Assembly (NCBI GenBank): GCA_018830565.1 | Contig: JAHJRX010000045.1 | Span: 10,626-74,625, forward strand | Reading direction: 5' to 3' | Length of the DNA: 64,000 nucleotides | Source: a bacterium | GTDB lineage: Bacteria; UBA9089; JAHJRX01 | Part shown: positions 5,841 through 64,000 of the stretch, piece after piece | Layout: each line of letters opens with the position of its first letter | How positions within the stretch are numbered: position 1 is the first letter of the stretch | Notes under the pieces: generated by a model | Database searches by the model: none | The model's input: the letters and a program-made list of their open reading frames with translations, nothing else | What the model was told of the DNA's origin: nothing | Position numbers and translations under genes: made by a program

Positions 5841-6010
5841 AAAATTTATTTTTAAAGACTAGAAAAATTATATCAGAAATAAAATTTTATGCCAACAAAA
5901 ATAACAAAAATGCGTGATTGCCTCTTCAAGGCTTGGTTCTTTTAATCTCTTTTGAGCAGTTAGCCAAACAATTATTAATCTATTTGAGGCAATGAGTTAA
6001 TCATTATAAA

Positions 6011-6105
6011 CCGGACATAGGAAATAATACCGAGCAATAAAAGATAAACTCATTGGCACTTAAATTAATTTGCTCTAAGTCAAATTTTCATTAATAGGTG
6101 CTATA
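6011..6105 (+). repeat. intergenic repeat element, copy A (family of at least 5 copies)
   Basis: About 95 bp nearly identical to 8026-8100 and 32704-32798; core hairpin AATTTG-CTCTAAGT-CAAATT. Confidence 0.8.
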
Positions 6106-6140
6106 ATTTGAATTAGTAAGTTATCTCATTCCCAAGAATC

Positions 6141-7937: not shown

Positions 7938-8025
7938 CTTAAGACCTGAAGTCTAATGATATAATAATAGTATAATTAAATAATATTATAATTAAAGATA
8001 CTATAGTAATTATTAACAAAAATTA

Positions 8026-8100
8026 GACATAGGAAATAATGCCGAGCAATAAAAGATAAACTCATTGGCACTTAAATTAATTGGCTCTAAGTTAAATTTT
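8026..8100 (+). repeat. intergenic repeat element, copy B
   Basis: Near-identical to copy A over about 75 bp; lies in the divergent promoter region between the 6141-7937 (-) and 8260 (+) genes. Confidence 0.8.
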
Positions 8101-8259
8101 AACTAATGAGTATTATATCACAAAAATTTTATAAATAAGTAGAATTGCTGTGCAATTTTCATATTTAGCTTGACAAATTCTAAAAAAACTTGCTTATTTA
8201 AAAATAATTTAGTATACTTTATAAAAGTAAAAGTTTTTGAAAGGAAACTTTAAGCTACC

Positions 8260-9660
8260 ATGAAAAACATAAAAAAGATAATATTAATAGAACCTAAATC
8301 TCCTGACCGTCATATCTTTGGACAAGCTTGTATGCCTCGCTTAGGACTTCCTATTTTAGGTACGATCTTAAAAGAAAAAGGGCATGAAGTGAGAATTTAT
8401 TGTCAGGATATCAAGAAGATAAATTATAGCGATGTTTTCTCAGCAGACTTAGTAGGAATTTCTACTACTACCTCTACTGCTCCTGAAGGCTACTTAATTG
8501 CTGATAAGATAAAAGCACATCATAGTAAAATTCCTGTTGTTATAGGAGGTGCTCATGCTACCTTTCTTCCAGAAGAAGCTCTAAGTCATTGTGACTATGT
8601 GATTAGAGGAGAAGGAGAGTATGTCTTTCCAGAACTTATCGAAGCCTTGGAAAACCATTGCACGGTAAGAAATATTAAAGGTTTATCTTACACAGAAGGA
8701 ACAGTCCCCGTCCATAATCCAGGTTATCCTAAACCTGTTTCCTTGGACCATCTTCCCATTCCTGATTTTTCTTTAGTTCTAGAAAGAGAAAAGATGACCG
8801 TTACTCCTATTTCTACTTCTCGTGGCTGTCCTTTCCATTGTAGTTTTTGTTCAGTAACTCCAATGTTTGGAAAAAAGTATCGCTTTCGAAACACTGATTT
8901 AGTTATAGAAGAGATAAAAAGAGATAAAAAAAAGAGGATCTTTTTTTACGATGATAACTTTACGGCAAACAAAACACGGAGCAAAGTACTTTTAGAAAAG
9001 ATGTTAGAAAATAATTTACGTCCTGAGTGGATGGCTCAAGCACGAGTTGATGTTGCAAAAGATAAAGATTTGTTAAAACTTATGCAAAAGACCAATTGTT
9101 TTATAGTCCAAATTGGGTTTGAGTCCATTAATCCCCTCACTTTAAAATCATATAATAAAGGGCAAACAGTAGAAGAAATAGAAGAAAGCATTATGATTTT
9201 ACACCAATACAAGATTAAAATACATGGTATGTTCATGTTTGGCTCAGATGATGACGAGATAGAGACTCTTAAACAAACAGTTAAATTTGCTAAAAGACTT
9301 AAGCTTGATACAATTCAATTTTTAACTTTAGTTCCTTTTTGTGGAACTAAAGTTTATTCTGATTTAGATGCCGCCGGGAGGATCTTTACTAAAAATTGGG
9401 TACTCTATGATGGTCATCATGTGGTATTTGAACCAAAAAAAATGAGTCCTTTTGAACTTCAAATAGAAACTTTTAAAGCCATGAAAAAATTCTATTCTTT
9501 ATGGCGTTGTTTAAAATCATTTTGGAAGGGTAAGTCCTTTACTGCTATGGCCAGATATTGGGGAAATAGAACCTTAAAGAAATGGGGAAAGGACCATAAG
9601 CCGCTCTTTGACCAGCTAAAACTCTTTAGCCGCAAGCTTAAGATTAATCGAAAAGTTTAA
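8260..9660 (+). CDS. B12-binding domain-containing radical SAM protein (class B rSAM)
   Basis: N-terminal cobalamin-binding Rossmann-like region; CxxxCxxC motif TSRGCPFHCSFCSV. Confidence 0.7.
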   Translation: MKNIKKIILIEPKSPDRHIFGQACMPRLGLPILGTILKEKGHEVRIYCQDIKKINYSDVFSADLVGISTTTSTAPEGYLIADKIKAHHSKIPVVIGGAHATFLPEEALSHCDYVIRGEGEYVFPELIEALENHCTVRNIKGLSYTEGTVPVHNPGYPKPVSLDHLPIPDFSLVLEREKMTVTPISTSRGCPFHCSFCSVTPMFGKKYRFRNTDLVIEEIKRDKKKRIFFYDDNFTANKTRSKVLLEKMLENNLRPEWMAQARVDVAKDKDLLKLMQKTNCFIVQIGFESINPLTLKSYNKGQTVEEIEESIMILHQYKIKIHGMFMFGSDDDEIETLKQTVKFAKRLKLDTIQFLTLVPFCGTKVYSDLDAAGRIFTKNWVLYDGHHVVFEPKKMSPFELQIETFKAMKKFYSLWRCLKSFWKGKSFTAMARYWGNRTLKKWGKDHKPLFDQLKLFSRKLKINRKV

Positions 9661-29803: not shown

Positions 29804-30787
29804 ATGATCTTGAAAAATAAGACTCTATTAATTACAGGAGGAACAGGTTCTTTTGGAAGAAAATTTACAGAAATAGTTCTAAAAGAATATCATCCTAAGA
29901 AACTTATTATATTTAGCCGAGATGAATTAAAACAGTTTGAGATGAGCCAGATCTTCAGTGAAAAGGAATATAAAAATATCAGATATTTCATTGGTGATGT
30001 AAGAGATAAAGAAAGATTATATCGGGCCTTGGCAGGGGTTGATATTGTAATTCATACAGCGGCATTAAAACAAGTTCCAGCGGGAGAATACAATCCCTTC
30101 GAAGCAGTTAAAACAAACATTTTAGGTGCAGAAAATATTATCAATGTAGCCATAGATCAAGGAGTAGGAAAGGTGCTTGCTCTAAGTACTGACAAAGCTG
30201 TGAACCCAATTAATCTTTATGGAGCTACTAAACTATGTTCTGATAAACTCTTTATTGCCGGCAACTCTTATATAGGCCAAAAGGATATCAATTTTAGTGT
30301 GGTTAGATATGGAAATGTAGTCGGTAGCCGGGGAAGTGTTATTCCTCTTTTTCAAAAACTTTCTTCCACCGGCAAACTTCCCATTACTGATAAAAGAATG
30401 ACTCGTTTTTGGATTACCTTAGACCAAGGAGTAAGATTTGTCTTGAAATGTTTAGCTAAAATGATAGGTGGAGAGATATTTGTTCCAAAGCTGCCGAGCA
30501 TGAATATTATGGACTTAGCTAAAGTAATTGCCCCAAAATGCAAATATGAATTTGTAGGAATTAGACCTGGAGAAAAGATCCATGAAGTCTTAATTTCAAA
30601 AGATGAAGCTCTGCACACCTTAGAATATGAGGATTGTTTTATTATTTACTCAGCCTTTCCTTGGCGAACAATACAAAAACATAGAATAGCTGGTGGTAAG
30701 CCTCTACCACCAGGGTTTTCCTATAGGAGTGATAAAAATAACTGGTGTTTAACCCCAGAAGAACTAAGAAAGATATTAGGTGAGTAA
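29804..30787 (+). CDS. pseB: UDP-N-acetylglucosamine 4,6-dehydratase (inverting), PseB/FlaA1 type
   Basis: LLITGGTGSFG, IIFSRDELKQFEMSQIF, RYFIGDVRDKERL and YGATKL...D align closely with Campylobacter/Helicobacter PseB. Confidence 0.85.
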   Translation: MILKNKTLLITGGTGSFGRKFTEIVLKEYHPKKLIIFSRDELKQFEMSQIFSEKEYKNIRYFIGDVRDKERLYRALAGVDIVIHTAALKQVPAGEYNPFEAVKTNILGAENIINVAIDQGVGKVLALSTDKAVNPINLYGATKLCSDKLFIAGNSYIGQKDINFSVVRYGNVVGSRGSVIPLFQKLSSTGKLPITDKRMTRFWITLDQGVRFVLKCLAKMIGGEIFVPKLPSMNIMDLAKVIAPKCKYEFVGIRPGEKIHEVLISKDEALHTLEYEDCFIIYSAFPWRTIQKHRIAGGKPLPPGFSYRSDKNNWCLTPEELRKILGE

Positions 30788-30793
30788 TTAGAA

Positions 30794-31648
30794 ATGAAGA
30801 TTGGGGCTATTATTCAAGCAAGAACTTCTTCAAGCAGGCTACCAAGAAAAGTTTTAAAAGAATTGCCGTATGGAAGTGGAATAACCGTTTTACAGCAGGT
30901 TATTAGGAGACTTAATAAATCAAAAAAAGTAAATGAAATTATTGTGGCTACCACCACCGACCCAGAAGACAAAAAAATTGTAAAAATAGCCGAATCTGAA
31001 AATGTAAAATGGTTTAGAGGCAGTAAAGAAGATGTTTTAGGTAGATATTACTCAGCAGCAAATGAAAATAATTTAGATCTTGTTATAAGAGTAACAAGTG
31101 ATTGCCCATGTATCGACTCTGAATTAGTTGATTTAGCGATAAAAGAACATTTAAAGACTGAATCGGATTATACATCAAATGACTCAAGAACCTTCCCTCG
31201 TGGCTTAGGTACCGAGGTGATAAACTTCAAGACTTTAGAAAAGGCTTTTAAAGATACCCAACATGACTATGAAAGAGAACATGTTACCCCATATATTTAC
31301 AAAACAAGACCTGACTTGTTCAAAATAACTTTAGTCAAAACGCCAGAAAAACTAAATTGTCCCGAGATTAGAATTACTCTTGATACGGAAGAAGATTATG
31401 TCTTGCTCTGTATAATTTTTGATTACCTTTATTATGAAAATATGTTTTTCAAAGCCAGGGATATAATCCAAATTTTCCAGAGGAAACCTTGGTTAGAACT
31501 CATCAATAAAAAAATTGCGCAAAAGAAAATATATGATACCTTGAATGAAGAAATGAAAGAGGTCATAAGAATATGTGAACTGCAAGATTTAAAAAGAGCC
31601 AAGGAGTTTCTGGAATCTCAAAATATTGCAAAATTCACGAAAGTCTAG
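30794..31648 (+). CDS. pseF: nonulosonic-acid cytidylyltransferase (PseF/NeuA family)
   Basis: N-terminal IGAIIQARTSSSRLPRKVLKEL CMP-sugar synthetase motif; position in the pse cluster. Confidence 0.7.
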   Translation: MKIGAIIQARTSSSRLPRKVLKELPYGSGITVLQQVIRRLNKSKKVNEIIVATTTDPEDKKIVKIAESENVKWFRGSKEDVLGRYYSAANENNLDLVIRVTSDCPCIDSELVDLAIKEHLKTESDYTSNDSRTFPRGLGTEVINFKTLEKAFKDTQHDYEREHVTPYIYKTRPDLFKITLVKTPEKLNCPEIRITLDTEEDYVLLCIIFDYLYYENMFFKARDIIQIFQRKPWLELINKKIAQKKIYDTLNEEMKEVIRICELQDLKRAKEFLESQNIAKFTKV

Positions 31649-31659
31649 CTAGAATAAAG

Positions 31660-32697
31660 ATGAATAAAATAATCTTTCGAACTGATGGAGGGGGGAATGT
31701 TGGGTTAGGACATCTTAGTCGGTGCCTAAGCCTAGCTGAAAGCTTAAAGGAAAAAGGTATCAAGTGTGTATTTGCCACCAAGGATATTGATTCAAAGATA
31801 GGAGGAATGATTGTTAGTAATGGTCACTTAATAGAAAAATTACCCTCAGAAATAAGCTTAGAAGAAGATTTAAACTTAACTATTAATTTGATTAAAAACA
31901 TCCGCCCTGATTTGGTAATTACTGATTCTTATGAGATTGATCAGTCTTATCTTGAACAATTAAAAAAATTAAATATTATTTTGATGAGTATCGATGATTT
32001 GGCAAAGTTGCATTTCTGTTCTGATATAGTGCTTAATCAAAACATTGGTGCCCAAAATAGTGATTATTCGATAGAAAAATATACCAAGCTATTGTTAGGA
32101 CCAGAATATGCCCTTTTAAGGAAGAAGGCTAGGGATAAACAGGGACTTAAGGAGATAAAAGAAATAGCTAAGAATATCTTGATCACCCTTGGTGGAACCG
32201 ATCCAGATAATCAAACCCTAAAAATAGTTAAGGCACTTAAGGATATCAAGAATAATATTGTGGTTACTGTGATTATGGGGCCTCATTATCAATACGAAGA
32301 ACTTCTTAGAAAAGAGATTGGAGTAAGTAACCAATTTTTCCTTGTGAGTGACCCTCAAGATATCTTTGACTTAATGGAAAAGGCAGATATGGCCGTCAGT
32401 GCCGGTGGGAGTACCTGCTATGAATTGGCCTATCTTGGGGTACCGAATATCATTATGGTCATGGCAGATAACCAGAAAAAGATTGCCGAGGAATTAGATA
32501 GCTACGGCACCTCTATAAACTTGAATTGGTTTGAAGATGTTACTGAAGAATATATCAAAAAGGCAGGAGAAAATTTGATTAAAGATAGAAATAAACGAGA
32601 AAAGATGAGCACGAAAGGCAGAGAGTTAGTTGATGGAAGAGGCGTAGAGAGGGTAGTAGAGGAGATTACAAAGCAAATCAATAGAGTTAGTTATTAA
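31660..32697 (+). CDS. pseG: UDP-2,4-diacetamido-2,4,6-trideoxy-beta-L-altropyranose hydrolase (PseG, GT28/MurG-like fold)
   Basis: N-terminal FRTDGGGNVGLGHLSRCLSLAESL matches the PseG signature. Confidence 0.75.
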   Translation: MNKIIFRTDGGGNVGLGHLSRCLSLAESLKEKGIKCVFATKDIDSKIGGMIVSNGHLIEKLPSEISLEEDLNLTINLIKNIRPDLVITDSYEIDQSYLEQLKKLNIILMSIDDLAKLHFCSDIVLNQNIGAQNSDYSIEKYTKLLLGPEYALLRKKARDKQGLKEIKEIAKNILITLGGTDPDNQTLKIVKALKDIKNNIVVTVIMGPHYQYEELLRKEIGVSNQFFLVSDPQDIFDLMEKADMAVSAGGSTCYELAYLGVPNIIMVMADNQKKIAEELDSYGTSINLNWFEDVTEEYIKKAGENLIKDRNKREKMSTKGRELVDGRGVERVVEEITKQINRVSY

Positions 32698-32703
32698 CGA
32701 AAA

Positions 32704-32798
32704 CCGGACATAGGAAATAATACCGAATAACAAAAGATAAACTTGTTTGGAGTTAAATTAATTTGCTCTAGGTCAAATTTTCATTAATAAGTGCTATA
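32704..32798 (+). repeat. intergenic repeat element, copy C (between pseG and pseI)
   Basis: About 90% identical to copies A and B; hairpin stem retained, loop base changed. Confidence 0.8.
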
Positions 32799-32819
32799 GA
32801 GAGTCAATAGAGAAGAGCG

Positions 32820-33872
32820 ATGAAGAAGGTAAAGATAGGTAATAAATTGGTTGGCGAAGGAGAACCCTGCTTTATCATTGCCGAGGCAGGAAGTAATCAC
32901 AATCGGGATTTCAAGCAGGCATTAAAGCTGATTGATATTGCGGCTGAGGCAGGAGCAAGTGCTGTTAAGTTTCAAACTTATTCTGCTGAAAAAATTTACT
33001 CTAAAAAAACCCCAAAGATGAGCTACTTAAAGAAAGAGAGATTAGCTAAAGAAGAAGAGTCTGTCTGGGATTTGATCAAACGAATTGAGATACCAAGAGA
33101 GTGGCATAAGGACTTGGCTGACTATTGCGCTGAAAAGGGAGTTATTTTCCTATCGACACCTTTCGATCTTCAGGCTGTAGACGAACTTGAAGAAGTAGGA
33201 ATGTTGGCTCATAAGATTGCCTCTTTTGAGATCACTCATCTGCCTCTCTTGGAGCATGTGGCCAAAACTAGCAAGCCGATTATTCTTTCAACTGGTATGG
33301 CTGACCTTTCAGATATTGAAACAGCTTTAGAAGTTATTTATAAACAAGGTAATGAAAATGTTATTTTACTCCATTGCGCCATAAGCTATCCTCCTAAGTA
33401 TGAAGATTTGAACTTACGGGCAATGGAGACAATGAGGCAGGCATTTCAACTGCCAGTGGGATTTTCTGACCATACCTTAGGAATTGTATCTGATATTGCG
33501 GCTGTAGCATTAGGTGCCTGTGCGATAGAGAAACATTTTACCTTAGATAGAAAACTACCAGGACCTGATCATTTCTTTGCCCTGGAGCCAGATGAACTAA
33601 AGGTAATGGTTCAGGCCATAAGAGATACTGAAAAGGCATTGGGTTCTCCAATCAAAAGGTGCACTCAAGCAGAAAAGGAGCTGTATCGTTTAGGGAGAAG
33701 GAGTTTAGTGGCAGCCTGTAATATTCCTAAGAAAACAGTGATTACCCGAGAAATGATCGAGGTCAAGAGACCAGGTTATGGTATTCCTACAAAGATGCTT
33801 AATTTAGTTATTGGCAGATCAGCTAGAGTTGACATCGAAGAAGATGATATCCTGTTCTGGGAGATGATATAA
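32820..33872 (+). CDS. pseI: pseudaminic acid synthase (NeuB family)
   Basis: FIIAEAGSNHNRDF...AVKFQTY NeuB/PseI core; C-terminal SAF domain. Confidence 0.8.
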   Translation: MKKVKIGNKLVGEGEPCFIIAEAGSNHNRDFKQALKLIDIAAEAGASAVKFQTYSAEKIYSKKTPKMSYLKKERLAKEEESVWDLIKRIEIPREWHKDLADYCAEKGVIFLSTPFDLQAVDELEEVGMLAHKIASFEITHLPLLEHVAKTSKPIILSTGMADLSDIETALEVIYKQGNENVILLHCAISYPPKYEDLNLRAMETMRQAFQLPVGFSDHTLGIVSDIAAVALGACAIEKHFTLDRKLPGPDHFFALEPDELKVMVQAIRDTEKALGSPIKRCTQAEKELYRLGRRSLVAACNIPKKTVITREMIEVKRPGYGIPTKMLNLVIGRSARVDIEEDDILFWEMI

Positions 33873-33873
33873 A

Positions 33874-34215
33874 GTGGATTTAATTCTGAGAGAGGCAAAA
33901 TTAGAAGACTGTGATGACCTCTACCACTGGAAAAATGATCCGGTGAGCAGGGAACAATCCTTTAATAGGGAAGAAGTTTCGTATGAAGAACACTGTGGTT
34001 GGCTTAAGGAAGCCCTAAAGGATTCCAATAGGCTATTTTATATTGGGATTGATGATAAAAATGAGAAATGCGGAGTGGCCCGGTTTGATATTAAAGATGA
34101 GTTTTTTGCTGAAGTTCATATAAATATTGCTCCAGAAAAGAGGAGAAAAGGGATTGGCAGTCAATTAATTTCAAAATCTTGTCCTTTTAACCCCAGACGG
34201 AGGAAGGCAAGATGA
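33874..34215 (+). CDS. pseH: PseH-like GNAT N-acetyltransferase, unusually short (113 aa; C-terminal part of the GNAT fold missing)
   Basis: WKNDP...EEH...RLFYIGI...RRKGIGSQLI follows the PseH pattern but the ORF stops about 40 aa early; its stop overlaps the next start (ATGA). Confidence 0.5.
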   Translation: MDLILREAKLEDCDDLYHWKNDPVSREQSFNREEVSYEEHCGWLKEALKDSNRLFYIGIDDKNEKCGVARFDIKDEFFAEVHINIAPEKRRKGIGSQLISKSCPFNPRRRKAR

Positions 34216-34970
34216 AAATCCTCTATCTGGGCAACAATCGAATAGGGCTGAATGTTCTAAAGTGGCTGAAGACAAGGGAGGAAAATATAGTTGGACTGGT
34301 AATTCATCCTCCAGAAAAGGCAAAGTTTGCCAAAGAGATGCAAAAGATTTCAGGACTGATGAAAGAAATGATATTTCTAGGAAATGGGATTAGTCAATCT
34401 GACTGTCTTAATAAGATTAAGAGTTTAAGCCCGGATATAGGCATAAGTGTTAATTTTGGGTATACAATAAAGAAAGAGTTTCTGGATATCTTTCCTCAGG
34501 GTTGCATAAACCTTCATACATCCTATTTGCCTTACAACCGAGGAGCTCATCCTAATATCTGGAGTATAATTGAAGAAACTCCAGCCGGTGTGACTTTGCA
34601 TTATATTGATGAAGGAATAGATACCGGTGACATAATTGCCCAAAAGGAGATTAAGGTTGAATTTAATGATACTGGCGAGACTCTTTACCATAAATTGGAA
34701 GATGCCTCTTTAAAACTGTTTCAGGGAACATGGGAGGATATAAAGAATAGCACTAATAGAAGAATAAAGCCGGTTGGTAAGGGAACCTATCATCGGACAA
34801 AGGATATAGAAAAAATTGATTGTATAGATTTGAACAGTAGCTACAAAGCTAAAGACTTATTAAATATCTTGAGGGCAAGAACCTTTTCGCCCTATAAAGG
34901 TGCTTATTGCGAAGCTGAAGGGAAGAAGATCTATTTGCAATTAGAATTGGGGAAGGAAAAGGAAGAATAA
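34212..34970 (+). CDS. Fmt-like formyltransferase (sugar N-formyltransferase candidate)
   Basis: Formyl_trans_N motif HTSYLPYNRGAHPNIW...TGVTLHYIDEGIDTGDIIAQ. Confidence 0.7.
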   Translation: MKILYLGNNRIGLNVLKWLKTREENIVGLVIHPPEKAKFAKEMQKISGLMKEMIFLGNGISQSDCLNKIKSLSPDIGISVNFGYTIKKEFLDIFPQGCINLHTSYLPYNRGAHPNIWSIIEETPAGVTLHYIDEGIDTGDIIAQKEIKVEFNDTGETLYHKLEDASLKLFQGTWEDIKNSTNRRIKPVGKGTYHRTKDIEKIDCIDLNSSYKAKDLLNILRARTFSPYKGAYCEAEGKKIYLQLELGKEKEE

Positions 34971-44975: not shown

Positions 44976-45338
44976 ATGACTATGAGCCATAATCTTCAAA
45001 GACATTTAAGAGTAGCAGAACTTATCAAAGAAGAGATTAGCACTTTAATTGTTACTAAAAAGATAAAGGATCCTCGAATTGGCTTTGCTACAGTCACCAA
45101 GGTAAAACTTTCTAAAGACTTAAAAAATTGCGATGTCTTTATAAGTATTTATGGAAATGAAGAAGAGATAAAAAGGACTTTAGAAGGACTATCTCAAGCT
45201 AAGGGATTTATTAAGGGTCAAATAGCTAAAAATCTTAACCTCAGATGTATTCCTTTCATCAACTTTAAACATGATTTATCTATAGAATACAGTGATCATA
45301 TTCTAAAGATTATCGAGGGGCTGAATATTCCTAAATGA
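44976..45338 (+). CDS. rbfA: ribosome-binding factor A
   Basis: KH-like RbfA fold motif; conserved position after infB. Confidence 0.8.
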   Translation: MTMSHNLQRHLRVAELIKEEISTLIVTKKIKDPRIGFATVTKVKLSKDLKNCDVFISIYGNEEEIKRTLEGLSQAKGFIKGQIAKNLNLRCIPFINFKHDLSIEYSDHILKIIEGLNIPK

Positions 45339-45571
45339 ATACTTCCGAAAGAGAGATAGATGGAGTACTAATAGATTGATGGTCTAAATATTCCTAAAGG
45401 AGTATATTCCTAAATGAATACTTCCAAAAGAGAGATAGATGGAGTACTAATAGATTGATGGTCTAAATATTCCTAAAGGAGTATATTCATAAATGAATAC
45501 TTCCAAAAGAGAGATAGATGGAGTACTAATAGATTGATGGTCTAAATATTCCTAAAGGAGTATATTCCTAA
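45335..45571 (+). repeat. 79-bp tandem repeat x3, duplicating the rbfA stop/truB start junction (each unit carries an RBS, an ATG and a 14-codon mini-ORF)
   Basis: Units start at 45335, 45414 and 45493, about 97% identical; the genuine truB start at 45572 repeats the first 37 nt of each unit. Confidence 0.85.
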
Positions 45572-46306
45572 ATGAATACTTCCGAAAGAGAGATAGATGG
45601 AGTACTAAATATTTATAAGTCTCAAAATTTGACCTCTCATGATGTTATCGTAAAATTAAGAAGACTCATCAAGATAAGAAAAATTGGACATACCGGAACT
45701 TTAGACCCTCAAGCTACTGGTGTCCTTTTAATTTGCCTCGGTCAAGCTACTAAACTTTCAAGTTGGTTATCTTCTAAAGGGAAAGAATATATTGCTGGAA
45801 TGAAGATAGGGGTTGTTACTGATACCCAGGATATTTGGGGAAGCATTCTTAGTAAAAAAGAACCAGTTAATTTAAAAGAAGAGCAAATAAAAGAAGCATT
45901 TTTACGTTTTACTGGAGAAATAACTCAGGTTCCTCCTATGTATTCTGCCGTTAAGTGGAAAGGAAAAAAGTTATATCAATTGGCCAGGAAGGGGTATATA
46001 GTAGAAAGAGTTCCGCGTAAAGTAATGATAAGCTCTTTAGAATTAATAAGCTATCAAGAAGATTCCTATCCAGAGGTAGTATTTAAAGTAAGTTGCTCTA
46101 CTGGAACTTATATTAGGACTTTATGTGAAGATATAGGTAACTATTTAGGATATGGAGGATGTTTGTCTTCTCTTGTCAGAACTAGGATTGATTCATTTCT
46201 TCTTGAAGACACCCTCACTTTAGAAAAACTTACTAAAATCATAGAAAATGACCTTCTTTTTAATTACTTAATACCCATAGAAAAAGTGTTAAATGGCTTC
46301 TCATGA
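45572..46306 (+). CDS. truB: tRNA pseudouridine(55) synthase
   Basis: GHTGTLDPQATGVLLI catalytic motif. Confidence 0.85.
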   Translation: MNTSEREIDGVLNIYKSQNLTSHDVIVKLRRLIKIRKIGHTGTLDPQATGVLLICLGQATKLSSWLSSKGKEYIAGMKIGVVTDTQDIWGSILSKKEPVNLKEEQIKEAFLRFTGEITQVPPMYSAVKWKGKKLYQLARKGYIVERVPRKVMISSLELISYQEDSYPEVVFKVSCSTGTYIRTLCEDIGNYLGYGGCLSSLVRTRIDSFLLEDTLTLEKLTKIIENDLLFNYLIPIEKVLNGFS

Positions 46307-47444: not shown

Positions 47445-47714
47445 ATGGTCTTAGCTTTAGAAGATAAGAAAAACATTATTGAAAAATTTAAGCAACATGA
47501 AAGCGACACTGGTTCACCAGAAGTTCAAATTGCTATACTTAGTGCTCGCATTAGTTATTTAACGGAACATTTTAAAGTTTATCCTAAAGACCATCATTCT
47601 CGAAGAGGATTACTTAAGCTTGTTTCTCAAAGGAGAAGTCTTTTGGATTATTTAAAGAAGAAAGATAGTAATCGTTATCTTGTTCTTATCAAGAAACTAA
47701 ATATACGAAAGTAA
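47445..47714 (+). CDS. rpsO: 30S ribosomal protein S15
   Basis: 89 aa; GSPEVQIA and HHSRRGLL motifs; precedes pnp. Confidence 0.9.
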
Positions 47715-47822
47715 AAGAAAGATAGGAATCGTTATTCTTTATCAAGAAACTAAATATACGAAAGTAAAAGAAAGATAGGAATCGTTATTCTTTATCAAGA
47801 AACTAAATATACGAAAACAAAA
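47659..47822 (+). repeat. tandem repeat of about 53 bp x3, derived from the rpsO 3' end, in the rpsO-pnp intergenic region
   Basis: Native rpsO tail (58 bp) followed by two near-identical 53-bp copies starting at 47717 and 47770. Confidence 0.8.
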
Positions 47823-47835
47823 GAAAGGATTTTAC

Positions 47836-49917
47836 ATGTTTAGCACACAACAAGAAATTGCAGGTAGAGTTTTATCTATAGAGACAGGGAATTTGGCTAA
47901 CCAAGCCAATGGCGCAGTGGTAATAAGATATGGAGATACTGTCATTATGGTGGCAGCAGTAGCCTCTAAAGAGGCAAAAAAAGATCTAGACTTTTTTCCC
48001 TTAATTTGCGAACACAAAGAAAGAACATATGCTGCTGGAAAATTCCCAGGTGGTTTTATAAAGAGAGAAGGACGCTCTACAGAGAAGGAAATATTAACTT
48101 CTCGGTTGATCGATCGTCCTTTACGGCCTCTTTTTAATAAGGATTTTCGAAATGAGGTAGCGATTACCTCGACTGTGTTTTCCTATGACGGGGAAAATAG
48201 TTCTGATATTATCTCGATAATTGGTGCTTCAGCAGCCTTAATTATTTCAGATATTCCATTTGACAAACCTATTGGCGTGGTTCGTATTGGAAGGATAAAT
48301 GATAAATTTATTGTTAACCCAACCCTTAAGGAACAAAAAGAAAGTTCTTTAGATTTAGTTATTGCCGGAACTAACTCTTCTATAATGATGATTGAATGTG
48401 GAGCTTCTGAGGTTTCAGAAAGATTAATTTTAGAAGCTCTTGAATTTAGTCAGGAACATATAAGAAGGATAATAAAACTACAAGAAGATTTATATCAACA
48501 ATACCATAAAGAAAAATTGATTTTTGAAAATTTTACTGTGAATAAACAATTAAAGAATTTAGTCAGTGAATTTATAGAGCCAAAGGTGAGAAATATAAAT
48601 TTTGGACTGACTAAGCAAGAATGGCAAAAACAAATGGAGAGTGTTGAAAAAGAGACGATAGAAAGATTTAAAGATCAATTTCCAGGAAAAGAGGGTGAAA
48701 TTAAAGCAGTTATAGAAGAAAATGAGAAAGTGGTGATTCGGGAACGAATTATTAAAGAAGAGAAAAGGCCTGATGGTCGAGATCCTAAAGCTATTCGTTC
48801 TATTACTTGCCAGGTAGGTATCTTACCTCGAACTCATGGTTCTGGATTATTTACTCGAGGTCAAACTCAAGCTTTAGTAGTTACTACTTTAGGAACAGAA
48901 GAAGATGAACAAATCGTTGATAGCCTTGAAGGCAAAAATAGAAAGAAATTTATGTTACACTATAATTTTCCCTCTTATAGCATAGGCGAAACTAAGCCTG
49001 ATCGTGGTCCTGGAAGACGAGAAATAGGTCATGGAGCTTTAGCCGAAAGAGCTCTTTCTCCTCTTATTCCTAATGGAGAGGTCTTTCCTTATACTATTAG
49101 AGTAGTTTCAGATATTTTAGAATCTAATGGTTCTACCTCTATGGCCAGTGTCTGCGGAGGTACTTTATCCTTGATGGATGCGGGAGTTCCTATCCAAAGG
49201 CCTTGCTCTGGAATTGCCATGGGACTTATTGCCAGCCAAGAAAAGATTATTATTTTGAGCGACATTACCGGGTTAGAAGACCAGATTGGTGATATGGATT
49301 TTAAAGTAGCCGGGACAAGCGAAGGAATTACTGCTTTACAATTAGACGTTAAGGTAGAAGGCTTAAGTGTAGAAATGCTTAAGGGAGCTTTACACCAAGC
49401 TTATGAAGGACGACTCTTTATTTTAGGGGAGATGAATAAAAGCATTCAAAAGTCTGCCGAGAAAATTTCTATTTATGCTCCTCGGATTATTAAGATAGGA
49501 ATAAATCCTGATAAAATTAGAGATGTCATTGGTCCTGGAGGAAAAATTATTCGAAATATTATTGAGCTTACTGGAGCTAAGATTGATATTAAAGATAAAG
49601 GAGAAGTTTCTATTTCTTCTTGCGATGAAGAAAAAGCTAATCAAGCTTTAGAAATGATTAATTGTTTAATAGCTGAAGTAGAGGTAGGAAAAATTTATCA
49701 AGGAAAAGTAATCAGGATAACAAATTTTGGAGCTTTTGTAGAGGTGTTACCAGGAAAAGAAGGATTGGTTCACATTTCTCAATTAGCTAACTACCATGTT
49801 AGAAAAGTAGAGGATATTTTAAAAGAAGGCGATAAAGTCTTAGTAAAAGTAATGGAGATTGATGAACAAGGTCGAATTAATTTAAGTCGTAAAGCTGCTT
49901 TAACGGACAAAGGTTAG
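47836..49917 (+). CDS. pnp: polyribonucleotide nucleotidyltransferase (PNPase)
   Basis: Two RNase PH domains, KH and S1 domains. Confidence 0.9.
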   Translation: MFSTQQEIAGRVLSIETGNLANQANGAVVIRYGDTVIMVAAVASKEAKKDLDFFPLICEHKERTYAAGKFPGGFIKREGRSTEKEILTSRLIDRPLRPLFNKDFRNEVAITSTVFSYDGENSSDIISIIGASAALIISDIPFDKPIGVVRIGRINDKFIVNPTLKEQKESSLDLVIAGTNSSIMMIECGASEVSERLILEALEFSQEHIRRIIKLQEDLYQQYHKEKLIFENFTVNKQLKNLVSEFIEPKVRNINFGLTKQEWQKQMESVEKETIERFKDQFPGKEGEIKAVIEENEKVVIRERIIKEEKRPDGRDPKAIRSITCQVGILPRTHGSGLFTRGQTQALVVTTLGTEEDEQIVDSLEGKNRKKFMLHYNFPSYSIGETKPDRGPGRREIGHGALAERALSPLIPNGEVFPYTIRVVSDILESNGSTSMASVCGGTLSLMDAGVPIQRPCSGIAMGLIASQEKIIILSDITGLEDQIGDMDFKVAGTSEGITALQLDVKVEGLSVEMLKGALHQAYEGRLFILGEMNKSIQKSAEKISIYAPRIIKIGINPDKIRDVIGPGGKIIRNIIELTGAKIDIKDKGEVSISSCDEEKANQALEMINCLIAEVEVGKIYQGKVIRITNFGAFVEVLPGKEGLVHISQLANYHVRKVEDILKEGDKVLVKVMEIDEQGRINLSRKAALTDKG

Positions 49918-53023: not shown

Positions 53024-53060
53024 AATTTCTACCTTATAGCACTATATTCTCAAACAACAT

Positions 53061-53120
53061 GGAATCCCCCTTAATCCCCCTTTGATAAAGGGGGAAAGTA
53101 GCAAAGCTGCAGGGGGATTT
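53061..53120. repeat. nested G5/C5 inverted repeats (AATCCCCC x2 ... GGGGG x2) forming alternative GC-rich hairpins
   Basis: Direct inspection; a GC island in the AT-rich spacer between rnj and uppP, with no U-tract. Confidence 0.5.
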
Positions 53121-53313
53121 AAATCGCTTACTTGTTTATTTATTCCTTATCTGATTGGAGTGATAAGTATCTTGTTTTTGGCACGGGACTAGAATCTGTT
53201 TTGTAAAATCTCATAATGAGAATTGCTGTTAATAACTACTATATTGTTGCTTTAAATTAACAACATTCATTAGTTCCATAAAACTTTATTTATTATAGAG
53301 AAATATTTAAGTT

Positions 53314-56966: not shown

Positions 56967-57068
56967 CCAGTCTTTTATTATCTATAAGGACTTATTTTGG
57001 GATTTAAGATAGCCAGTCTTTTATTATCTATAAGGACTTATTTTGGGATTTAAGATAGCCAGATCTTT
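56931..57068 (+). repeat. 46-bp tandem repeat x3 spanning the pgsA stop / pgpA start junction
   Basis: Units at 56931, 56977 and 57023; the third unit carries a 1-nt insertion and substitutions that create the pgpA reading frame. Confidence 0.8.
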
Positions 57069-58188: not shown

Positions 58189-58394
58189 AGATTTGTAACT
58201 ATTTACCCAAGTGAAGTGCCTTTTCTGTAACTCATTGAAATTCATTTCAAATTTAATTTGCAATGAAGTTTTTTTTAAAGAACACTTCAGTTGAATAGAG
58301 TGTTACTAAGATTTTAATATTGCTGTAACAAAGATTTTAATATTGCTTGACAAAATAATAGTCTATCTTTTAAAATAAAAAAAAAGGAGGATGA

Positions 58395-59514: not shown

Positions 59515-60507
59515 ATGCCCGGAGAAAAAATCTTAATTGTTGACGATGATCTAGAAATAGCTTTGGTCTTGAAAGCAATCTTTGAAAAAGAGAACTTTAG
59601 GCCTTATGCAGTTAATAATGGAAAGGAAGCTGTGGAATTAGCCAGGACATTATTTCCAGATCTAATTATTTTAGATATCCTTATGCCTAAGATTAGTGGT
59701 TATGAGGTATGTAAAAAACTACGGCATGATTTTCATACCAGTCATATTCCCATTATTGTTTTATCCGTTAAAGATCATACTCTTGACAAGATCAAAGGAT
59801 TAAAGATAGGAGCAGATGATTATGTCACTAAACCATTTAGTAGTGAAGAATTAGTAGCTCGGATTAAAGCGGTCTTACGTCGGACTCATTTAGAAAGGGA
59901 TTGTAACCCTTTAACTCAATTACCAGGAAATCTGGCGATTGAACATCAAATTAAGAATAGATTAAACTTAGGATTGCCCTTTGGTTTTATGTATGCAGAT
60001 TTAGATAATTTTAAACCTTTTAATGATTATCATGGATATAGTAGGGGAGATTTAGCCATTAAACTTTTAGCTAATATTATCTTAAGTTCGATAAAAAAGC
60101 ATGGAAATTTGGATGACTTTGTAGGTCATATCGGGGGAGATGATTTTATTATTATTACCCGAAAGATAGAGTCTATCGAGGATATTTGTAAGAATATTAT
60201 CGAGAATTTAAAAGTATCTTCCCTTGATCTCTTTGGCCAAAAAGATCGTCAGCAAGGCTATTTTGAAATACTTGATCGCCGAGGAAATGCTAAAAAGTTT
60301 CCTGCCCGTTTAGACATTACTATTGCTATTACCTCTAACCAATATGCAAGCTTTACTAACTCTTTACAGATTAGTGATACTTTAGCTGAAATAAAGAAGT
60401 ATGGCAAACAAGTAGAAGGAAGTGTTTTCATTATTGATCGCAGGGAAAAAAAGAAAATTACTAAACTTACAGATGTTATAGTACCGATTAATGAAAATTT
60501 GACTTAG
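59515..60507 (+). CDS. response regulator with REC domain plus GGDEF-type domain carrying a GGDDF motif (paralog 1)
   Basis: REC motifs DDD/D53-like/K; GGDEF-domain landmarks NPLTQLPGN, ADLDNFKPFNDYHGYSRGD, GHIGGDDF. Confidence 0.7.
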   Translation: MPGEKILIVDDDLEIALVLKAIFEKENFRPYAVNNGKEAVELARTLFPDLIILDILMPKISGYEVCKKLRHDFHTSHIPIIVLSVKDHTLDKIKGLKIGADDYVTKPFSSEELVARIKAVLRRTHLERDCNPLTQLPGNLAIEHQIKNRLNLGLPFGFMYADLDNFKPFNDYHGYSRGDLAIKLLANIILSSIKKHGNLDDFVGHIGGDDFIIITRKIESIEDICKNIIENLKVSSLDLFGQKDRQQGYFEILDRRGNAKKFPARLDITIAITSNQYASFTNSLQISDTLAEIKKYGKQVEGSVFIIDRREKKKITKLTDVIVPINENLT

Positions 60508-60545
60508 AGCAAATTAGTTTGACTCCAAACGAGTTTATCTTTTAT
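60486..60545 (-). repeat. intergenic repeat element, copy E (reverse orientation), overlapping the last 7 codons of paralog 1
   Basis: Reverse complement matches the core of copies A and C, including the AATTTG-CTCTAAGT-CAAATT hairpin. Confidence 0.75.
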
Positions 60546-60576
60546 TACTTAATATCATTATTCCAAAACAACTACT

Positions 60577-61536
60577 ATGCCATTTCAAAAGGATAATATG
60601 GCTGGCGAATTAATATTATTAGTAGATGATGAAGTAGATATGCTTAATCTTTTAAAAAGCTTCTTCATGGAAAATGGTTATTCCTGTATAGAAGCTCAAA
60701 GCGGTATTCAAGCTCTTGAAATTGCTCGAATGATTCATCCTGATTTGATTGTTTTAGATATTATGATGCCTCATATGGATGGCTTTGTTGTATGTCAAAA
60801 GCTAAAGAATGATTATGTGACCAGTCATATTCCTATTGTGCTTCTTACTGTAAAAAGAGAAACTTCTGATCGGGTAAAAGGCTTAGAATTAGGGGCTGAT
60901 GATTATATAGCTAAACCATTTGATCTTTCTGAGCTCTTGGCTCGAGTTAAAGCGGTCTTACGTCGGACTCATTTAGAAAGGGATTGTAACCCTTTAACTC
61001 AATTACCAGGAAATCTGGCTATTGAACATCAAATTAAGAATAGATTAAAGAATGATACTCCTTTTGCCTTTTTATATGCCGACATAGATGATTTTAAGTT
61101 TTTTAATGATTATTATGGATATAGTAGGGGTGATTACGCCATTAAGACTTTTTCTAATGTGATCTTGTCTTCGATAAGAAAGCACGGAAGTTCAGAGGAT
61201 TTTGTAGGTCATATCGGGGGAGATGATTTTATTGTTATTACTAAGTTAGAGGCAGCTATTGACATTTGTAAAGACATTATTGAAAATACTGCCTTTTCTA
61301 TACCTCAATTATTTGATGAAGAAGATCTAAAGAGAGGTTATTTTGAAACCTTGACCCGAAGAGGAAAGAAAAAAGTTGCTGCTAATCTTACCGTGACTAT
61401 TGCAGTAACTACTACTGAATACAGTCAGTTTGAAAATTCCATGGAAATAAGTAGCATCTTAGCAGCGCTAAAACGTTATGGGAAGAACAAAGGTGGCAAT
61501 CTTTATGTAGTAGATCGGCGAAAAAAAGTTAGATAG
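60577..61536 (+). CDS. REC-GGDEF(GGDDF) response regulator, paralog 2
   Basis: Same architecture as paralog 1; shares a 100-nt near-identical patch with paralog 1. Confidence 0.7.
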   Translation: MPFQKDNMAGELILLVDDEVDMLNLLKSFFMENGYSCIEAQSGIQALEIARMIHPDLIVLDIMMPHMDGFVVCQKLKNDYVTSHIPIVLLTVKRETSDRVKGLELGADDYIAKPFDLSELLARVKAVLRRTHLERDCNPLTQLPGNLAIEHQIKNRLKNDTPFAFLYADIDDFKFFNDYYGYSRGDYAIKTFSNVILSSIRKHGSSEDFVGHIGGDDFIVITKLEAAIDICKDIIENTAFSIPQLFDEEDLKRGYFETLTRRGKKKVAANLTVTIAVTTTEYSQFENSMEISSILAALKRYGKNKGGNLYVVDRRKKVR

Positions 61537-62541: not shown

Positions 62542-63252
62542 ATGATTATTGCGCAGCAAAAACCAATTCAAGAAATAGAGGCGATGGTGGCTGGTTACCA
62601 GAAAATTTTAGTGGTTGGTTGTGGTACTTGTGTTACAGTTTGCATGGCTGGTGGAGAAAAGGAAGTAGGCATTATGGCTTCTTGTTTACGAATGTCCTTA
62701 AGATTGGCTGGGAAAACCCCAGAAATTATTGAGGAATGTATTCAACGGCAATGTGAGTGGGAATTTGTAGATGAGTTAAAGGATAAAGTAGCCAGGGTAG
62801 AAGCCATAATTTCTTCTGCTTGTGGAGTAGGAGTACAAGCACTGGTGGAACGATTTAGTAATAAGCCAATTTATCCAGCTCTTAATACCAGCTTCATGGG
62901 ACTTCCCCAAGAGCCTGGTTTTTGGTTAGAAACCTGTCGGGGTTGCGGAAATTGTGGCTTAGGTAAATTTGGCGGTATTTGTCCTATTGCTCGTTGCTCA
63001 AAGACATTACTTAATGGTCCTTGTGGTGGCAGCCAGAATGGTAAATGCGAGATAGATAAAGAGATGAATTGCGGCTGGCAGTTAATCTACCAACGACTAA
63101 AAGCATTAGGGCAGATTAATCAGATAGAGGAGATAGTTTTACCTAAAGATTGGTCCACAGATAGAGATAAAGGACAACGAAGGATAGTCAGAGAAGATGT
63201 CTATTCTAATAGTTATAACGAAAACCAGACATTAAGAAATAATACCAAGTAA
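62542..63252 (+). CDS. metV: MetV-like protein (methylenetetrahydrofolate reductase C-terminal-domain / zinc-ribbon iron-sulfur protein)
   Basis: Cys-rich motifs GCGTCVTVCMAGGE and CRGCGNCGLGKFGGICPIARCSK; immediately precedes metF. Confidence 0.6.
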   Translation: MIIAQQKPIQEIEAMVAGYQKILVVGCGTCVTVCMAGGEKEVGIMASCLRMSLRLAGKTPEIIEECIQRQCEWEFVDELKDKVARVEAIISSACGVGVQALVERFSNKPIYPALNTSFMGLPQEPGFWLETCRGCGNCGLGKFGGICPIARCSKTLLNGPCGGSQNGKCEIDKEMNCGWQLIYQRLKALGQINQIEEIVLPKDWSTDRDKGQRRIVREDVYSNSYNENQTLRNNTK

Positions 63253-63256
63253 TAAA

Positions 63257-63338
63257 AAATAAACTTCAAGGGCTACCTTGTTTGGAGTTAAAAATTAATT
63301 TGCTCTAGATCAAATTTTTTCATTAATAGGTGCTCTAT
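63257..63338 (+). repeat. intergenic repeat element, copy D, abutting the metF start codon
   Basis: Matches the 3' two-thirds of copies A to C; hairpin stem intact, loop base changed. Confidence 0.75.
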
Positions 63339-64000
63339 ATGAACAGACCGTTTAAGGAAGTTCTAAAATCAGGTGAGTTTGTAGTTACTTCAGAGATTGG
63401 GCCTCCCAAAGGAACTAATATTGAGAAGATGATGCATCACATAGAGATGCTAAAGGATAAAGTCCATGGAATGAATGTGACCGATAATCAATCGTCAGTG
63501 ATGAGGCTTTCTTCTTTGGCCACCTGCCATCTCATTAAAGACCACGGCGGTGAGCCCATTTTGCAAATGACTTGTCGTGATCGTAATCGGATGGCTTTAC
63601 AATCTGATTTGATTAGTTCTCATGTTTTAGGTGTTCATAATGTTCTTTGTCTGACTGGCGACCATATCAGTTTGGGTGATCATAAAGGAGCTAAACAAGT
63701 CTTTGATTTAGATTCAGTTCAATTGATTACTACAGTAAGGACATTGGAGCAAGGTAGAGATATTGGTGGAAACGCCCTTGATGGAACAGTAGAGTTTTGT
63801 CTGGGGGCTACGGTTACACCTGAAGCTGATCAGATGGAATCACAATTATTAAAGTTTCGCAAAAAAGTTAAAGCTGGGGCAGAGTTTTTCCAGACTCAAG
63901 CAGTTTATGATCTGAATAAACTAAGGATGTTCACGGAGTATGCCCATCAATTTAAGGTAAAGATCTTAGCCGGAATTTTAGTTCTTACCTCGGCAGGTAT
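63339..64000 (+). CDS. metF: methylenetetrahydrofolate reductase, N-terminal part (3' end outside the window)
   Basis: ATG at 63339 with an open frame to the window edge; TIM-barrel MTHFR pattern (EIGPPKG, LQMTCRDRN, CLTGDH); not in the ORF track because no stop lies inside the window. Confidence 0.7.
   Translation, partial: MNRPFKEVLKSGEFVVTSEIGPPKGTNIEKMMHHIEMLKDKVHGMNVTDNQSSVMRLSSLATCHLIKDHGGEPILQMTCRDRNRMALQSDLISSHVLGVHNVLCLTGDHISLGDHKGAKQVFDLDSVQLITTVRTLEQGRDIGGNALDGTVEFCLGATVTPEADQMESQLLKFRKKVKAGAEFFQTQAVYDLNKLRMFTEYAHQFKVKILAGILVLTSAG

What the first reader, a model, noticed from the sequence alone, without database searches (positions are those of the whole stretch)
32704..32798. Same repeat element inserted between pseG and pseI inside the pse operon
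Copy C occupies the only sizeable intergenic gap (122 bp) within the otherwise tightly packed pseB-pseF-pseG-pseI-pseH-fmt cluster and ends about 20 nt before the pseI start. It could act as an internal promoter, an RNA processing site, or a sRNA/regulator target shared with the distal glycosyltransferase gene, co-regulating dispersed glycosylation genes.
Basis: seen in the sequence. Interest (0 to 1): 0.6.

Follow-up and report, generated by a model that had tools for sequence, protein, structure and literature searches.

The report
Small mobile DNA repeat in sugar operon
The repeat between pseG and pseI is one copy of a roughly 116-bp non-coding "jumping" DNA element derived from an IS630-type insertion sequence; it is scattered between unrelated genes in this uncultured bacterium, so it is an ordinary selfish insertion and not a glycosylation-specific control element.

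Summary
The repeat is real, but it is a MITE (miniature inverted-repeat transposable element), not a dedicated regulatory motif.

- **Boundaries.** Copy C spans 32682-32798. Its left end reaches 16 nt into pseG and supplies pseG's last codons and stop codon.
- **Copy number.** The window holds five copies. Related groundwater-type metagenome contigs hold at least 64 further distinct copies.
- **Structure.** The consensus is 116 bp, 27% GC, with sharp edges (TATAG…CTATA). The terminal inverted repeats match at 26 of 31 positions. All six frames contain stops.
- **Parent element.** The same ends flank a 1087-bp IS630-family insertion sequence (HTH ORF plus DDE_3 transposase, TA on both sides) in an uncultured-bacterium MAG. 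A 291-bp deletion intermediate lies on a contig of the MITE-rich metagenome.
- **No directional or functional bias.** Copies lie in either orientation between co-directional genes (24 vs 21), next to genes of many unrelated functions.
- **No RNA or transcription signal.** There is no Rfam match, no covariation, no terminator, and no promoter signal above background.
- **Genome effects.** A 98%-identical strain has a single hybrid A/B copy and lacks the glycosyltransferase gene that lies between A and B here.
- **Resemblance.** The left inverted repeat resembles the Neisseria Correia repeat (21 of 23 positions, one 2-nt gap).

Correia-like effects on expression (promoter, RNase III hairpin) remain possible but have no support here. 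Verdict: new member of a known kind, low interest.

The parts
32682..32798 (+). MITE copy C (117 nt; 1-nt insertion relative to the sister-strain copy), about 90% identical to the family consensus
   Evidence: nhmmer E = 2e-32. Boundaries come from the 64-copy alignment and from sister strain L114.
32682..32713 (+). Left terminal inverted repeat of copy C (tip TAGAGTTAGTTATTAACG..., decayed from TATAGTAGTTATTAACG). Corresponds to the transposase-proximal end (IRL) of the parent IS. Contains the pseG stop codon.
   Evidence: Consensus inverted repeats match at 26 of 31 positions.
32768..32798 (+). Right terminal inverted repeat of copy C (...CTAGGTCAAATTTTCATTAATAAGTGCTATA). The first 21 nt from its tip (32778-32798) match the family consensus exactly.
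   Evidence: Terminal-repeat search with 0 mismatches over a 22-nt probe, and 21 nt against the consensus.
31660..32697 (+). pseG (UDP-2,4-diacetamido-2,4,6-trideoxy-beta-L-altropyranose hydrolase). Its last five codons (R-V-S-Y-stop) are MITE sequence.
   Evidence: Pfam Glyco_tran_28_C. Homologs are named as this hydrolase. Sister-strain protein P0001 ends ...NRVVINENRT, reading further into the same inverted repeat.
32820..33872 (+). pseI (NeuB family plus SAF). Its start codon and purine-rich leader (32799-32819) lie outside the MITE.
   Evidence: Pfam NeuB 1e-99; sequence.
32694..32721 (+). Only sigma-70-like match inside copy C (TTAACG-16-AATAAT, 9 of 12), reading toward pseI. Not above background.
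   Evidence: 8 sites found in the region against 5.7 +/- 2.3 in shuffles.
5990..6105 (+). MITE copy A (left inverted repeat degenerate), downstream of the Maf-like glycosyltransferase gene 6141-7937(-)
   Evidence: nhmmer E = 2e-29.
8002..8117 (+). MITE copy B, in the divergent region between 6141-7937(-) and the B12/radical-SAM gene 8260-9660(+)
   Evidence: nhmmer E = 8e-27.
60477..60579 (-). MITE copy E (103 nt, left arm partly deleted). Holds the stop of 59515-60507 and the ATG (60577) of the next GGDEF gene.
   Evidence: nhmmer E = 8e-20.
63205..63339 (+). MITE copy D (135 nt, internal insertions). The upstream ORF ends 48 nt inside it. Its last A is the A of the metF ATG.
   Evidence: nhmmer E = 2e-20.
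53041..53243 (-). 203-bp element with the same outermost termini but a different interior. In a 99.5%-identical strain the same site holds the ordinary 117-bp MITE.

Best explanation
Copy C is a non-autonomous transposable element (MITE) derived by internal deletion from an IS630-family insertion sequence.

How it moves (inferred). An IS630-type DDE transposase supplied in trans recognises the roughly 31-bp terminal inverted repeats and cuts and pastes the unit into a TA dinucleotide.

What happened here. The unit landed at what was probably a tightly packed or overlapping pseG/pseI junction, and it accounts for essentially the whole 122-nt gap. The insertion was tolerated for three reasons:
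- The left inverted repeat carries stop codons in all three frames, so pseG simply acquired a short new tail and stop.
- pseI kept its own leader and ATG.
- The element has no terminator.

Likely consequences (inferred). pseG and pseI are no longer translationally coupled, and the operon mRNA carries an AU-rich imperfect hairpin. Any promoter or RNA-processing effect is a by-product, not the reason the sequence is there.

Genome-level role. Copies serve as recombination breakpoints, for example the loss of the glycosyltransferase gene between copies A and B in a sister strain.

Shown: repeat family, boundaries, inverted repeats, lack of coding capacity, homology to the IS ends, the deletion intermediate, lack of orientation or functional bias, and strain polymorphisms. 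Inferred: TA duplication, trans-mobilisation, the ancestral junction, and the effects on expression.
For: Family and boundaries:
- Five window copies.
- 112 metagenome loci containing 64 distinct full-length copies, with a median 94% identity to the consensus.
- Conservation drops abruptly outside TATAG...CTATA, and flanking sequences are unrelated.
- Inverted repeats match at 26 of 31 positions; stops in all six frames; 27% GC.

Link to the parent IS:
- L118 positions 514-1600 form a 1087-bp unit with the same inverted repeats, TA on both sides, an HTH ORF and a DDE_3 ORF (PF13358, 1e-29).
- The MITE's right arm matches the IS right end over about 47 nt, and its left arm matches the IS left end over about 30 nt.
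- L086 positions 2484-2774, on a contig from the MITE-rich metagenome, is a 291-bp derivative that keeps 81 codons of the transposase C-terminus between MITE-like ends.

Lack of bias:
- Orientation is symmetric: 24 (gene end, gene start) against 21 (gene start, gene end).
- Neighbouring genes are functionally diverse.

The pse junction:
- pseG reads into the inverted repeat in both strains, with different tails.
- In relative L130, pseG and pseI overlap by 4 nt.

Strain differences at copies:
- L002 has one hybrid A/B copy and lacks 6096-8019.
- Different elements occupy the same site at 53041-53243.
Against: - No empty site was found for copy C or for any other copy, so the TA target duplication and the act of insertion are inferred. 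No duplication beyond the conserved ends was detectable.
- No full-length transposase gene with these ends was found in the host population. Only a truncated derivative was found, so current mobility is unproven.
- A 9-nt direct repeat TCAATAGAG occurs on both sides of copy C, at 32678-32686 and 32806-32814 (window coordinates). The simple TA model does not require it.
- Expression effects were not measurable here, so a secondarily acquired regulatory role cannot be excluded.
Confidence: 0.88

Rival explanations
1. Exapted internal promoter. The MITE carries or creates a sigma-70 promoter, as Correia elements do, and drives pseI-pseH-fmt independently of the upstream genes.
For: - A TTAACG-16-AATAAT match at 32694-32721 reads toward pseI. 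It lies in the arm homologous to the transposase-proximal end of the parent IS.
- The right end, TGCTATA plus flank, resembles an extended -10 element that the flank can complete.
- Correia elements are documented to form promoters at either end (PMC2649163; PMC10969869).
Against: - The match is 9 of 12, and such matches are no more frequent than in shuffles (8 against 5.7).
- At copy C the right-end hexamer would be TATAGA, with no T at position 6.
- There is no orientation bias toward downstream gene starts among full-length copies (31 starts against 30 ends at the right end).
- The whole element is uniformly conserved, so the hexamers show no extra constraint.
Confidence: 0.15
2. RNA processing or stability element. 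When co-transcribed, the paired inverted repeats form a long hairpin that RNase III cleaves or binds, setting different levels for the pseB-F-G and pseI-H-fmt segments.
For: - The consensus folds end to end at -27.3 kcal/mol, z = -5.5.
- Correia hairpins are RNase III substrates (PMC2649163; PMC10969869).
- The element lies inside an operon, so it is very likely transcribed.
Against: - Copy C itself folds weakly in the sense orientation (-18.6 kcal/mol, z = -1.4, 18 of 200 shuffles as good), because its left tip has decayed.
- Copies D and E do not fold better than shuffles.
- The pairing is a by-product of the inverted repeats. No compensatory changes were seen.
Confidence: 0.15
3. A shared sRNA or regulator-binding target that co-regulates dispersed glycosylation genes.
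For: Three of the five window copies are next to flagellar-glycosylation genes: A and B flank a Maf-like glycosyltransferase gene, and C lies in the pse cluster.
Against: - Copies D and E, and at least 60 copies elsewhere, adjoin unrelated genes.
- Both orientations occur.
- There is no Rfam family.
- A sister strain has lost the glycosyltransferase gene through the flanking copies.
Confidence: 0.03

Closest known systems
RUP (repeat unit of pneumococcus), the 107-bp MITE linked to IS630-Spn1
   Same: - Size of about 107-116 bp.
- Mainly intergenic and multicopy.
- Stop codons in all frames.
- TA at the termini.
- Inverted repeats match those of an IS630-family element, taken as evidence of trans-mobilisation (PMC2229807; here).
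   Different: - Different sequence and host lineage (an unclassified uncultured bacterium).
- The inverted repeats here are much longer (26 of 31 positions, against 9 contiguous bp listed for RUP in PMC2229807).
- The matching full-length IS was found in another organism. Only a deletion derivative was found in the host population.
Correia elements (CREE / NEMIS) of Neisseria
   Same: - Size of about 105-155 bp, and TA ends.
- Long inverted repeats beginning TATAGT. The left repeat aligns with the Correia repeat tatagtggattaacaaaaaccgg at 21 of 23 positions with one 2-nt gap (0 of 5000 shuffles score as well; sequences from PMC5039591).
- Frequently abut start codons, even donating the A of an ATG (copy D; compare PMC2649163).
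- Fold into inverted-repeat hairpins.
   Different: - The interior was not compared with the Correia core.
- No IHF site was tested.
- Promoter and RNase III functions are documented for Correia and untested here.
- The right inverted repeat shows no significant similarity to Correia repeats.
- The mobilising enzyme of Correia elements is stated to be undetermined (PMC2649163), whereas an IS630-family partner is identified here.
Nezha and other IS630-derived cyanobacterial MITEs
   Same: The MITE shares its inverted repeats with an IS that is found intact only in another organism (Nezha and ISNpu3; PMC3184786), the same situation as here with L118.
   Different: For Nezha, filled and empty orthologous sites were shown. 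No empty site was recovered here.

Membership tests
MITE (miniature inverted-repeat transposable element) | Short (under about 300 bp), multicopy, dispersed, with sharp common boundaries and unrelated flanks | tested here: met
   116-bp consensus; 5 window copies plus 64 distinct copies elsewhere; conservation collapses outside TATAG...CTATA.
MITE (miniature inverted-repeat transposable element) | Terminal inverted repeats | tested here: met
   26 of 31 positions complementary at the ends; some copies have perfect 15-nt tips.
MITE (miniature inverted-repeat transposable element) | No coding capacity | tested here: met
   2-4 stop codons in each of the six frames of the consensus.
MITE (miniature inverted-repeat transposable element) | Target-site duplication shown by filled versus empty sites | tested here: inconclusive
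   No duplication beyond the invariant terminal TA. No empty site was recovered; sister strains carry copies at all five sites. The TA duplication is inferred from the TA...TA ends and from the IS630 family.
MITE (miniature inverted-repeat transposable element) | Termini shared with an autonomous IS | tested here: met
   The L118 1087-bp IS has the same inverted repeats. The L086 291-bp deletion derivative bridges the IS and the MITE.
IS630 family (parent element L118:514-1600) | DDE transposase of the DDE_3 / Tc1-mariner-like type with an N-terminal HTH | tested here: met
   PF13358 DDE_3 at 1.1e-29; HTH_28, HTH_23 and HTH_29 in the upstream ORF.
IS630 family (parent element L118:514-1600) | Insertion into TA with TA duplication | tested here: inconclusive
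   TA flanks both ends of the single L118 copy and of the MITE consensus, but there is no empty site for comparison.
Correia element (CREE / NEMIS) | The 26-bp Correia inverted repeat | tested here: inconclusive
   The left inverted repeat is similar but not identical (21 of 23 positions plus a 2-nt gap; 0 of 5000 shuffles). The right inverted repeat is not similar. This suggests related termini, not membership.
Correia element (CREE / NEMIS) | Characteristic core with or without an IHF site; occurrence in Neisseria | not tested
   No full Correia sequence was available in the tools. The host is an unclassified uncultured bacterium.
Correia element (CREE / NEMIS) | Functional promoters and RNase III cleavage | not testable with these tools
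   Only sequence-level proxies were available.
Structured cis-regulatory RNA or sRNA (Rfam) | Match to a curated covariance model, or covariation-supported structure in one orientation | tested here: not met
   No hit at gathering score. Best E-value hit is 18.8 bits against a gathering score of 87. 0 compensatory pairs. Both orientations relative to genes.

The most novel reading that the evidence does not exclude
The inverted repeats of this MITE and of its IS630-family parent may be homologous to the Correia repeat of Neisseria, whose mobilising enzyme is described as undetermined (PMC2649163). If so, Correia elements descend from this subgroup of IS630-family elements. Transposases like the one in L118 would then be the long-missing type of enzyme able to bind and move them. 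Separately, individual copies (D and E, perhaps C) may have been exapted, since they supply stop codons, a Shine-Dalgarno-like AGGTG and even start codons to neighbouring genes.
Probability: 0.25. Interest if true: 0.5.

Novelty: new member of a known kind. Interest (0 to 1): 0.25.

Why it matters
- **Annotation.** The gap in the pse operon is a transposon scar. The last residues of PseG, the DUF5981 protein and a GGDEF protein are element-encoded. Gene callers may misplace starts that fall at element ends.
- **Genome dynamics.** The copies mark breakpoints of strain-level gene loss (the flagellar glycosyltransferase gene) and of element replacement in a natural population.
- **Transposon biology.** The family gives a clean series from IS to deletion derivative to MITE for IS630. 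Its inverted repeats look Correia-like, which offers a testable lead on what mobilises Correia elements.
- **Regulation.** It says nothing new about how pseudaminic-acid synthesis is regulated.

Tried and rejected
- **Rfam.** Searched at gathering score over the whole window (only two tRNAs) and at E <= 10 over 32600-32900 (only chance-level hits).
- **RNAalifold.** Run on the five copies on both strands; energies were negligible and there was no covariation.
- **Terminator.** None predicted in 31600-33900.
- **Longer target-site duplication.** Tested lengths of 1-7 nt beyond each of six assumed boundary shifts; none exceeded the shuffled-pair expectation.
- **9-nt TCAATAGAG repeat around copy C as a duplication.** Rejected as a family property because other copies lack anything similar. 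It remains unexplained locally.
- **Orientation bias as a sign of directional function.** None for full-length copies. Right-half remnants face gene starts 13 to 6, which is not significant.
- **Internal repeat pattern in 185,579 species genomes.** 0 hits.
- **Autonomous copy in the held metagenome loci.** Inverted-repeat pairs and tblastn found only the L086 remnant.
- **Protein search with the remnant.** Found only two short fragments.
- **Taxonomy through RecA and PseG homolog names.** Only unclassified 'bacterium' MAGs lie above about 72% identity.
- **Empty-site search in sister-strain contigs L002, L046, L114, L128, L133.** All sites are occupied.

Full report
**1. Observation**

The pse block is tightly packed. 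It consists of pseB-like 29804-30787, pseF-like 30794-31648, pseG 31660-32697, pseI 32820-33872, an acetyltransferase at 33874-34215 and a formyltransferase at 34212-34970. The junctions are 6, 11, 122, 1 and -4 nt.

The 122-nt gap contains a sequence that recurs four more times in the window:
- A, 5990-6105 (+)
- B, 8002-8117 (+)
- D, 63205-63339 (+)
- E, 60477-60579 (-)

A profile of the family hits exactly these five places (E = 2e-32 to 8e-20) and nothing else below E = 0.3.

The reported start of 32704 is too far right. The unit begins at 32682, so it includes the last codons and the TAA stop of pseG (32695-32697).

**2. What the unit is**

The window is nearly identical to the metagenome contig ENA ERZ27247117 k141_265102.

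An internal 23-nt pattern found nothing in 185,579 species-representative genomes. It found 112 stretches in JGI metagenomes, mostly samples Ga0180007, Ga0180008 and Ga0180009. Some of those contigs (L002, L046, L114, L128) are 98-99.6% identical to the window, so they are the same population.

nhmmer recovered about 90 hits, of which 64 are distinct full-length copies. Their alignment shows near-invariant sequence over 116 columns and an abrupt fall to background on both sides. The consensus is:

TATAGTAGTTATTAACGAAAACTAGACATAGGAAATAATACCGAGCAATAAAAGATAAACTTGTTTGCCCTCAAATTAATTTGCTCTATGTCAAATTTTCATTAATAAGTGCTATA

Its properties:
- The first and last 31 nt are inverted repeats, matching at 26 of 31 positions.
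- GC content is 27%.
- Every frame on both strands has 2-4 stops.
- Median identity of copies to the consensus is 94%. Copy C is 90%, and the other window copies are 75-86%.

These are the defining features of a MITE.

**3. Parent element**

A scan of the species genomes with the degenerate inverted-repeat tip gave 13 hits. Several carry short elements bounded by the same tips: L115 (150 bp, Planctomycetota MAG), L121 (284 bp) and L125 (199 bp, Nitrospirota MAG).

L118 (uncultured bacterium MAG, CAJVYN010000281.1) carries a 1087-bp unit at 514-1600:
- It is bounded by TATAGCACTTATTAACGAAAATTTGTCATAG... and its inverted partner.
- TA lies on each side.
- It encodes a 121-aa HTH protein and a 206-aa DDE_3 protein (PF13358, 1.1e-29).

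That is an IS630-family insertion sequence. The MITE's right arm matches the transposase-distal end of this IS for about 47 nt. Its left arm matches the transposase-proximal end for about 30 nt.

In a contig of the MITE-rich metagenome (L086, Ga0180009_10003026, positions 2484-2774), a 291-bp element has MITE-like ends enclosing the last 81 codons of such a transposase. That fragment is 68% identical to L118 orfB and includes the YSPDLNPIEELW motif. It is an internal-deletion intermediate.

A protein search with that fragment found only two short fragments. No intact partner was seen in the host population.

**4. Target and mobility**

No direct repeat beyond the conserved ends exceeds expectation. 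This fits the 2-bp TA duplication of IS630-type elements, with the TA hidden in TA|TAG...CTA|TA, but it is not proof. I found no empty site.

Evidence for recent dynamics is indirect:
- **L002.** This 98%-identical strain has one mosaic copy, with the left flank of A and the right flank of B. It lacks 6096-8019, which includes the Maf-N/GT1-like gene 6141-7937.
- **Site 53041-53243.** The window holds a 203-bp element with the same outermost tips. The 99.5%-identical L128 has the ordinary 117-bp MITE between identical flanks.
- **L062 and L094.** These share a right flank but not a left flank.

**5. Does it have a directional or gene-specific role?**

- Among 62 de-duplicated full-length copies, 24 lie gene-end to gene-start and 21 the reverse. 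Each end faces gene starts and gene ends about equally.
- Neighbouring genes span unrelated functions.
- About one copy in six overlaps the 3' end of the upstream ORF and supplies its stop. Copy C does this for pseG.
- In sister strain L114 the same copy lacks one T. There PseG reads eight codons into the inverted repeat (...NRVVINENRT, 350 aa) instead of ...NRVSY (345 aa).
- More distant PseG homologs end near ...VEEI(L/W)(K/S).
- In relative L130, pseG and pseI overlap by 4 nt. In L129 and L131, other small genes sit at that junction.

Removing the MITE plus one copy of a flanking 9-nt repeat would restore an ATGA overlap (...AATAGAGAAGAGCGATGA). Removing only the MITE at TA would give a longer PseG tail overlapping pseI. 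I cannot decide between these two reconstructions.

**6. Regulatory readings**

- **Rfam.** Nothing credible.
- **RNA structure.** The consensus folds as an inverted-repeat hairpin (-27.3 kcal/mol, z = -5.5). Copy C in the sense orientation gives only -18.6 kcal/mol (z = -1.4), and copies D and E are no better than shuffles. RNAalifold finds no compensatory pairs.
- **Terminator.** None predicted.
- **Promoter.** One promoter-like site, TTAACG-16-AATAAT at 32694-32721, reads toward pseI. Such 9-of-12 matches are as common in shuffles. The right end, TGCTATA plus flank, could act as an extended -10 in some copies, but at copy C the hexamer would be TATAGA.

Promoter and RNase III roles are documented for Correia elements (PMC2649163; PMC10969869). 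Here they remain analogies.

**7. Comparison with known elements**

The closest in kind are:
- RUP and IS630-Spn1 (PMC2229807).
- Nezha and ISNpu3 (PMC3184786).

The closest in terminal sequence is the Correia repeat. Using the four published variants (PMC5039591), the left inverted repeat (the CCGG variant present in copy C) aligns with tatagtggattaacaaaaaccgg at 21 of 23 positions with one 2-nt gap. None of 5000 shuffles scored as well. The right inverted repeat is not significantly similar.

The comparison was post hoc and covers about 25 nt, so I treat it as a lead. Snyder et al. state that the mobilising mechanism of Correia elements is undetermined.

**8. Verdict**

This is a previously undescribed MITE family of IS630 origin in an unclassified uncultured bacterium. 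RecA has at most 82% identity to any named MAG protein, and about 72% to many phyla. Copy C is a tolerated insertion at the pseG/pseI junction. It is ordinary in kind, and the glycosylation-specific interpretation is not supported.

Noticed in passing
window 53041-53243 (-); L128 160-276; L115 4599-4748; L058 13910-14252: A second, 203-bp element shares only the outermost tips with the MITE (TATAGTAGTTATTAAC ... ATAGTGCTATA). It carries an internal CCCCCTTTATCAAAGGGGGATTAAGGGGGATT hairpin that also occurs in a Planctomycetota MAG element. In a 99.5%-identical strain the same site, with identical flanks, holds the ordinary 117-bp MITE instead.
   Followed up: partly
window 5990-8117 versus L002 4574-4688: A 98%-identical strain has a single mosaic A/B MITE and lacks the 598-aa Maf-N/GT1-like glycosyltransferase gene (6141-7937) that lies between copies A and B in the window. 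The mosaic is not a simple single crossover of the window alleles.
   Followed up: yes
window 63205-63339 and 60477-60579: Copies D and E fill whole intergenic spaces. The upstream ORFs end inside them. The metF ATG uses the last A of copy D, with an SD-like AGGTG in the right inverted repeat. The ATG (60577) of a GGDEF response-regulator gene is the complement of copy E's mutated tip (CAT).
   Followed up: partly
L128 5315-6743 versus window 58326-58328: A sister strain carries a 1.43-kb IS-like insertion between ligT and recA. It encodes a 432-aa HTH protein and has subterminal AATAGGACATTTC repeats. The window lacks it but has the 17-nt AAGATTTTAATATTGCT twice in tandem at that spot.
   Followed up: no
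window 32678-32686 and 32806-32814: The 9-nt direct repeat TCAATAGAG lies on both sides of copy C. The left copy spans the flank/element boundary. It is not a family-wide duplication, and its origin is unexplained.
   Followed up: partly
window 59515-62506: Three tandem paralogous response-regulator/GGDEF genes, 67-81% identical at the DNA level over two 182-300-nt blocks, with MITE copy E between the first two.
   Followed up: no
window 45325-45629, 47686-47844, 56929-57066: Tandem repeat arrays with periods of 79, 53 and 46 nt. The 46-nt array differs in copy number between the window and ENA contig k141_265102.
   Followed up: no
L081 1660-1730, L039 11740-11770, L079 470-520, L112 1900-1960, L050 11169-11372: Some MITE copies carry short tandem duplications of the right tip or of internal segments. 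One locus has a partial copy abutting a full copy.
   Followed up: no
L129 3976-4314; L131 4079-4471: In two relatives with 67-68% identical PseG, other small genes occupy the pseG-pseI junction: a 112-aa unknown and a 130-aa PDDEXK_3 protein. In L130 the two genes overlap by 4 nt. This junction is a recurrent insertion point.
   Followed up: partly
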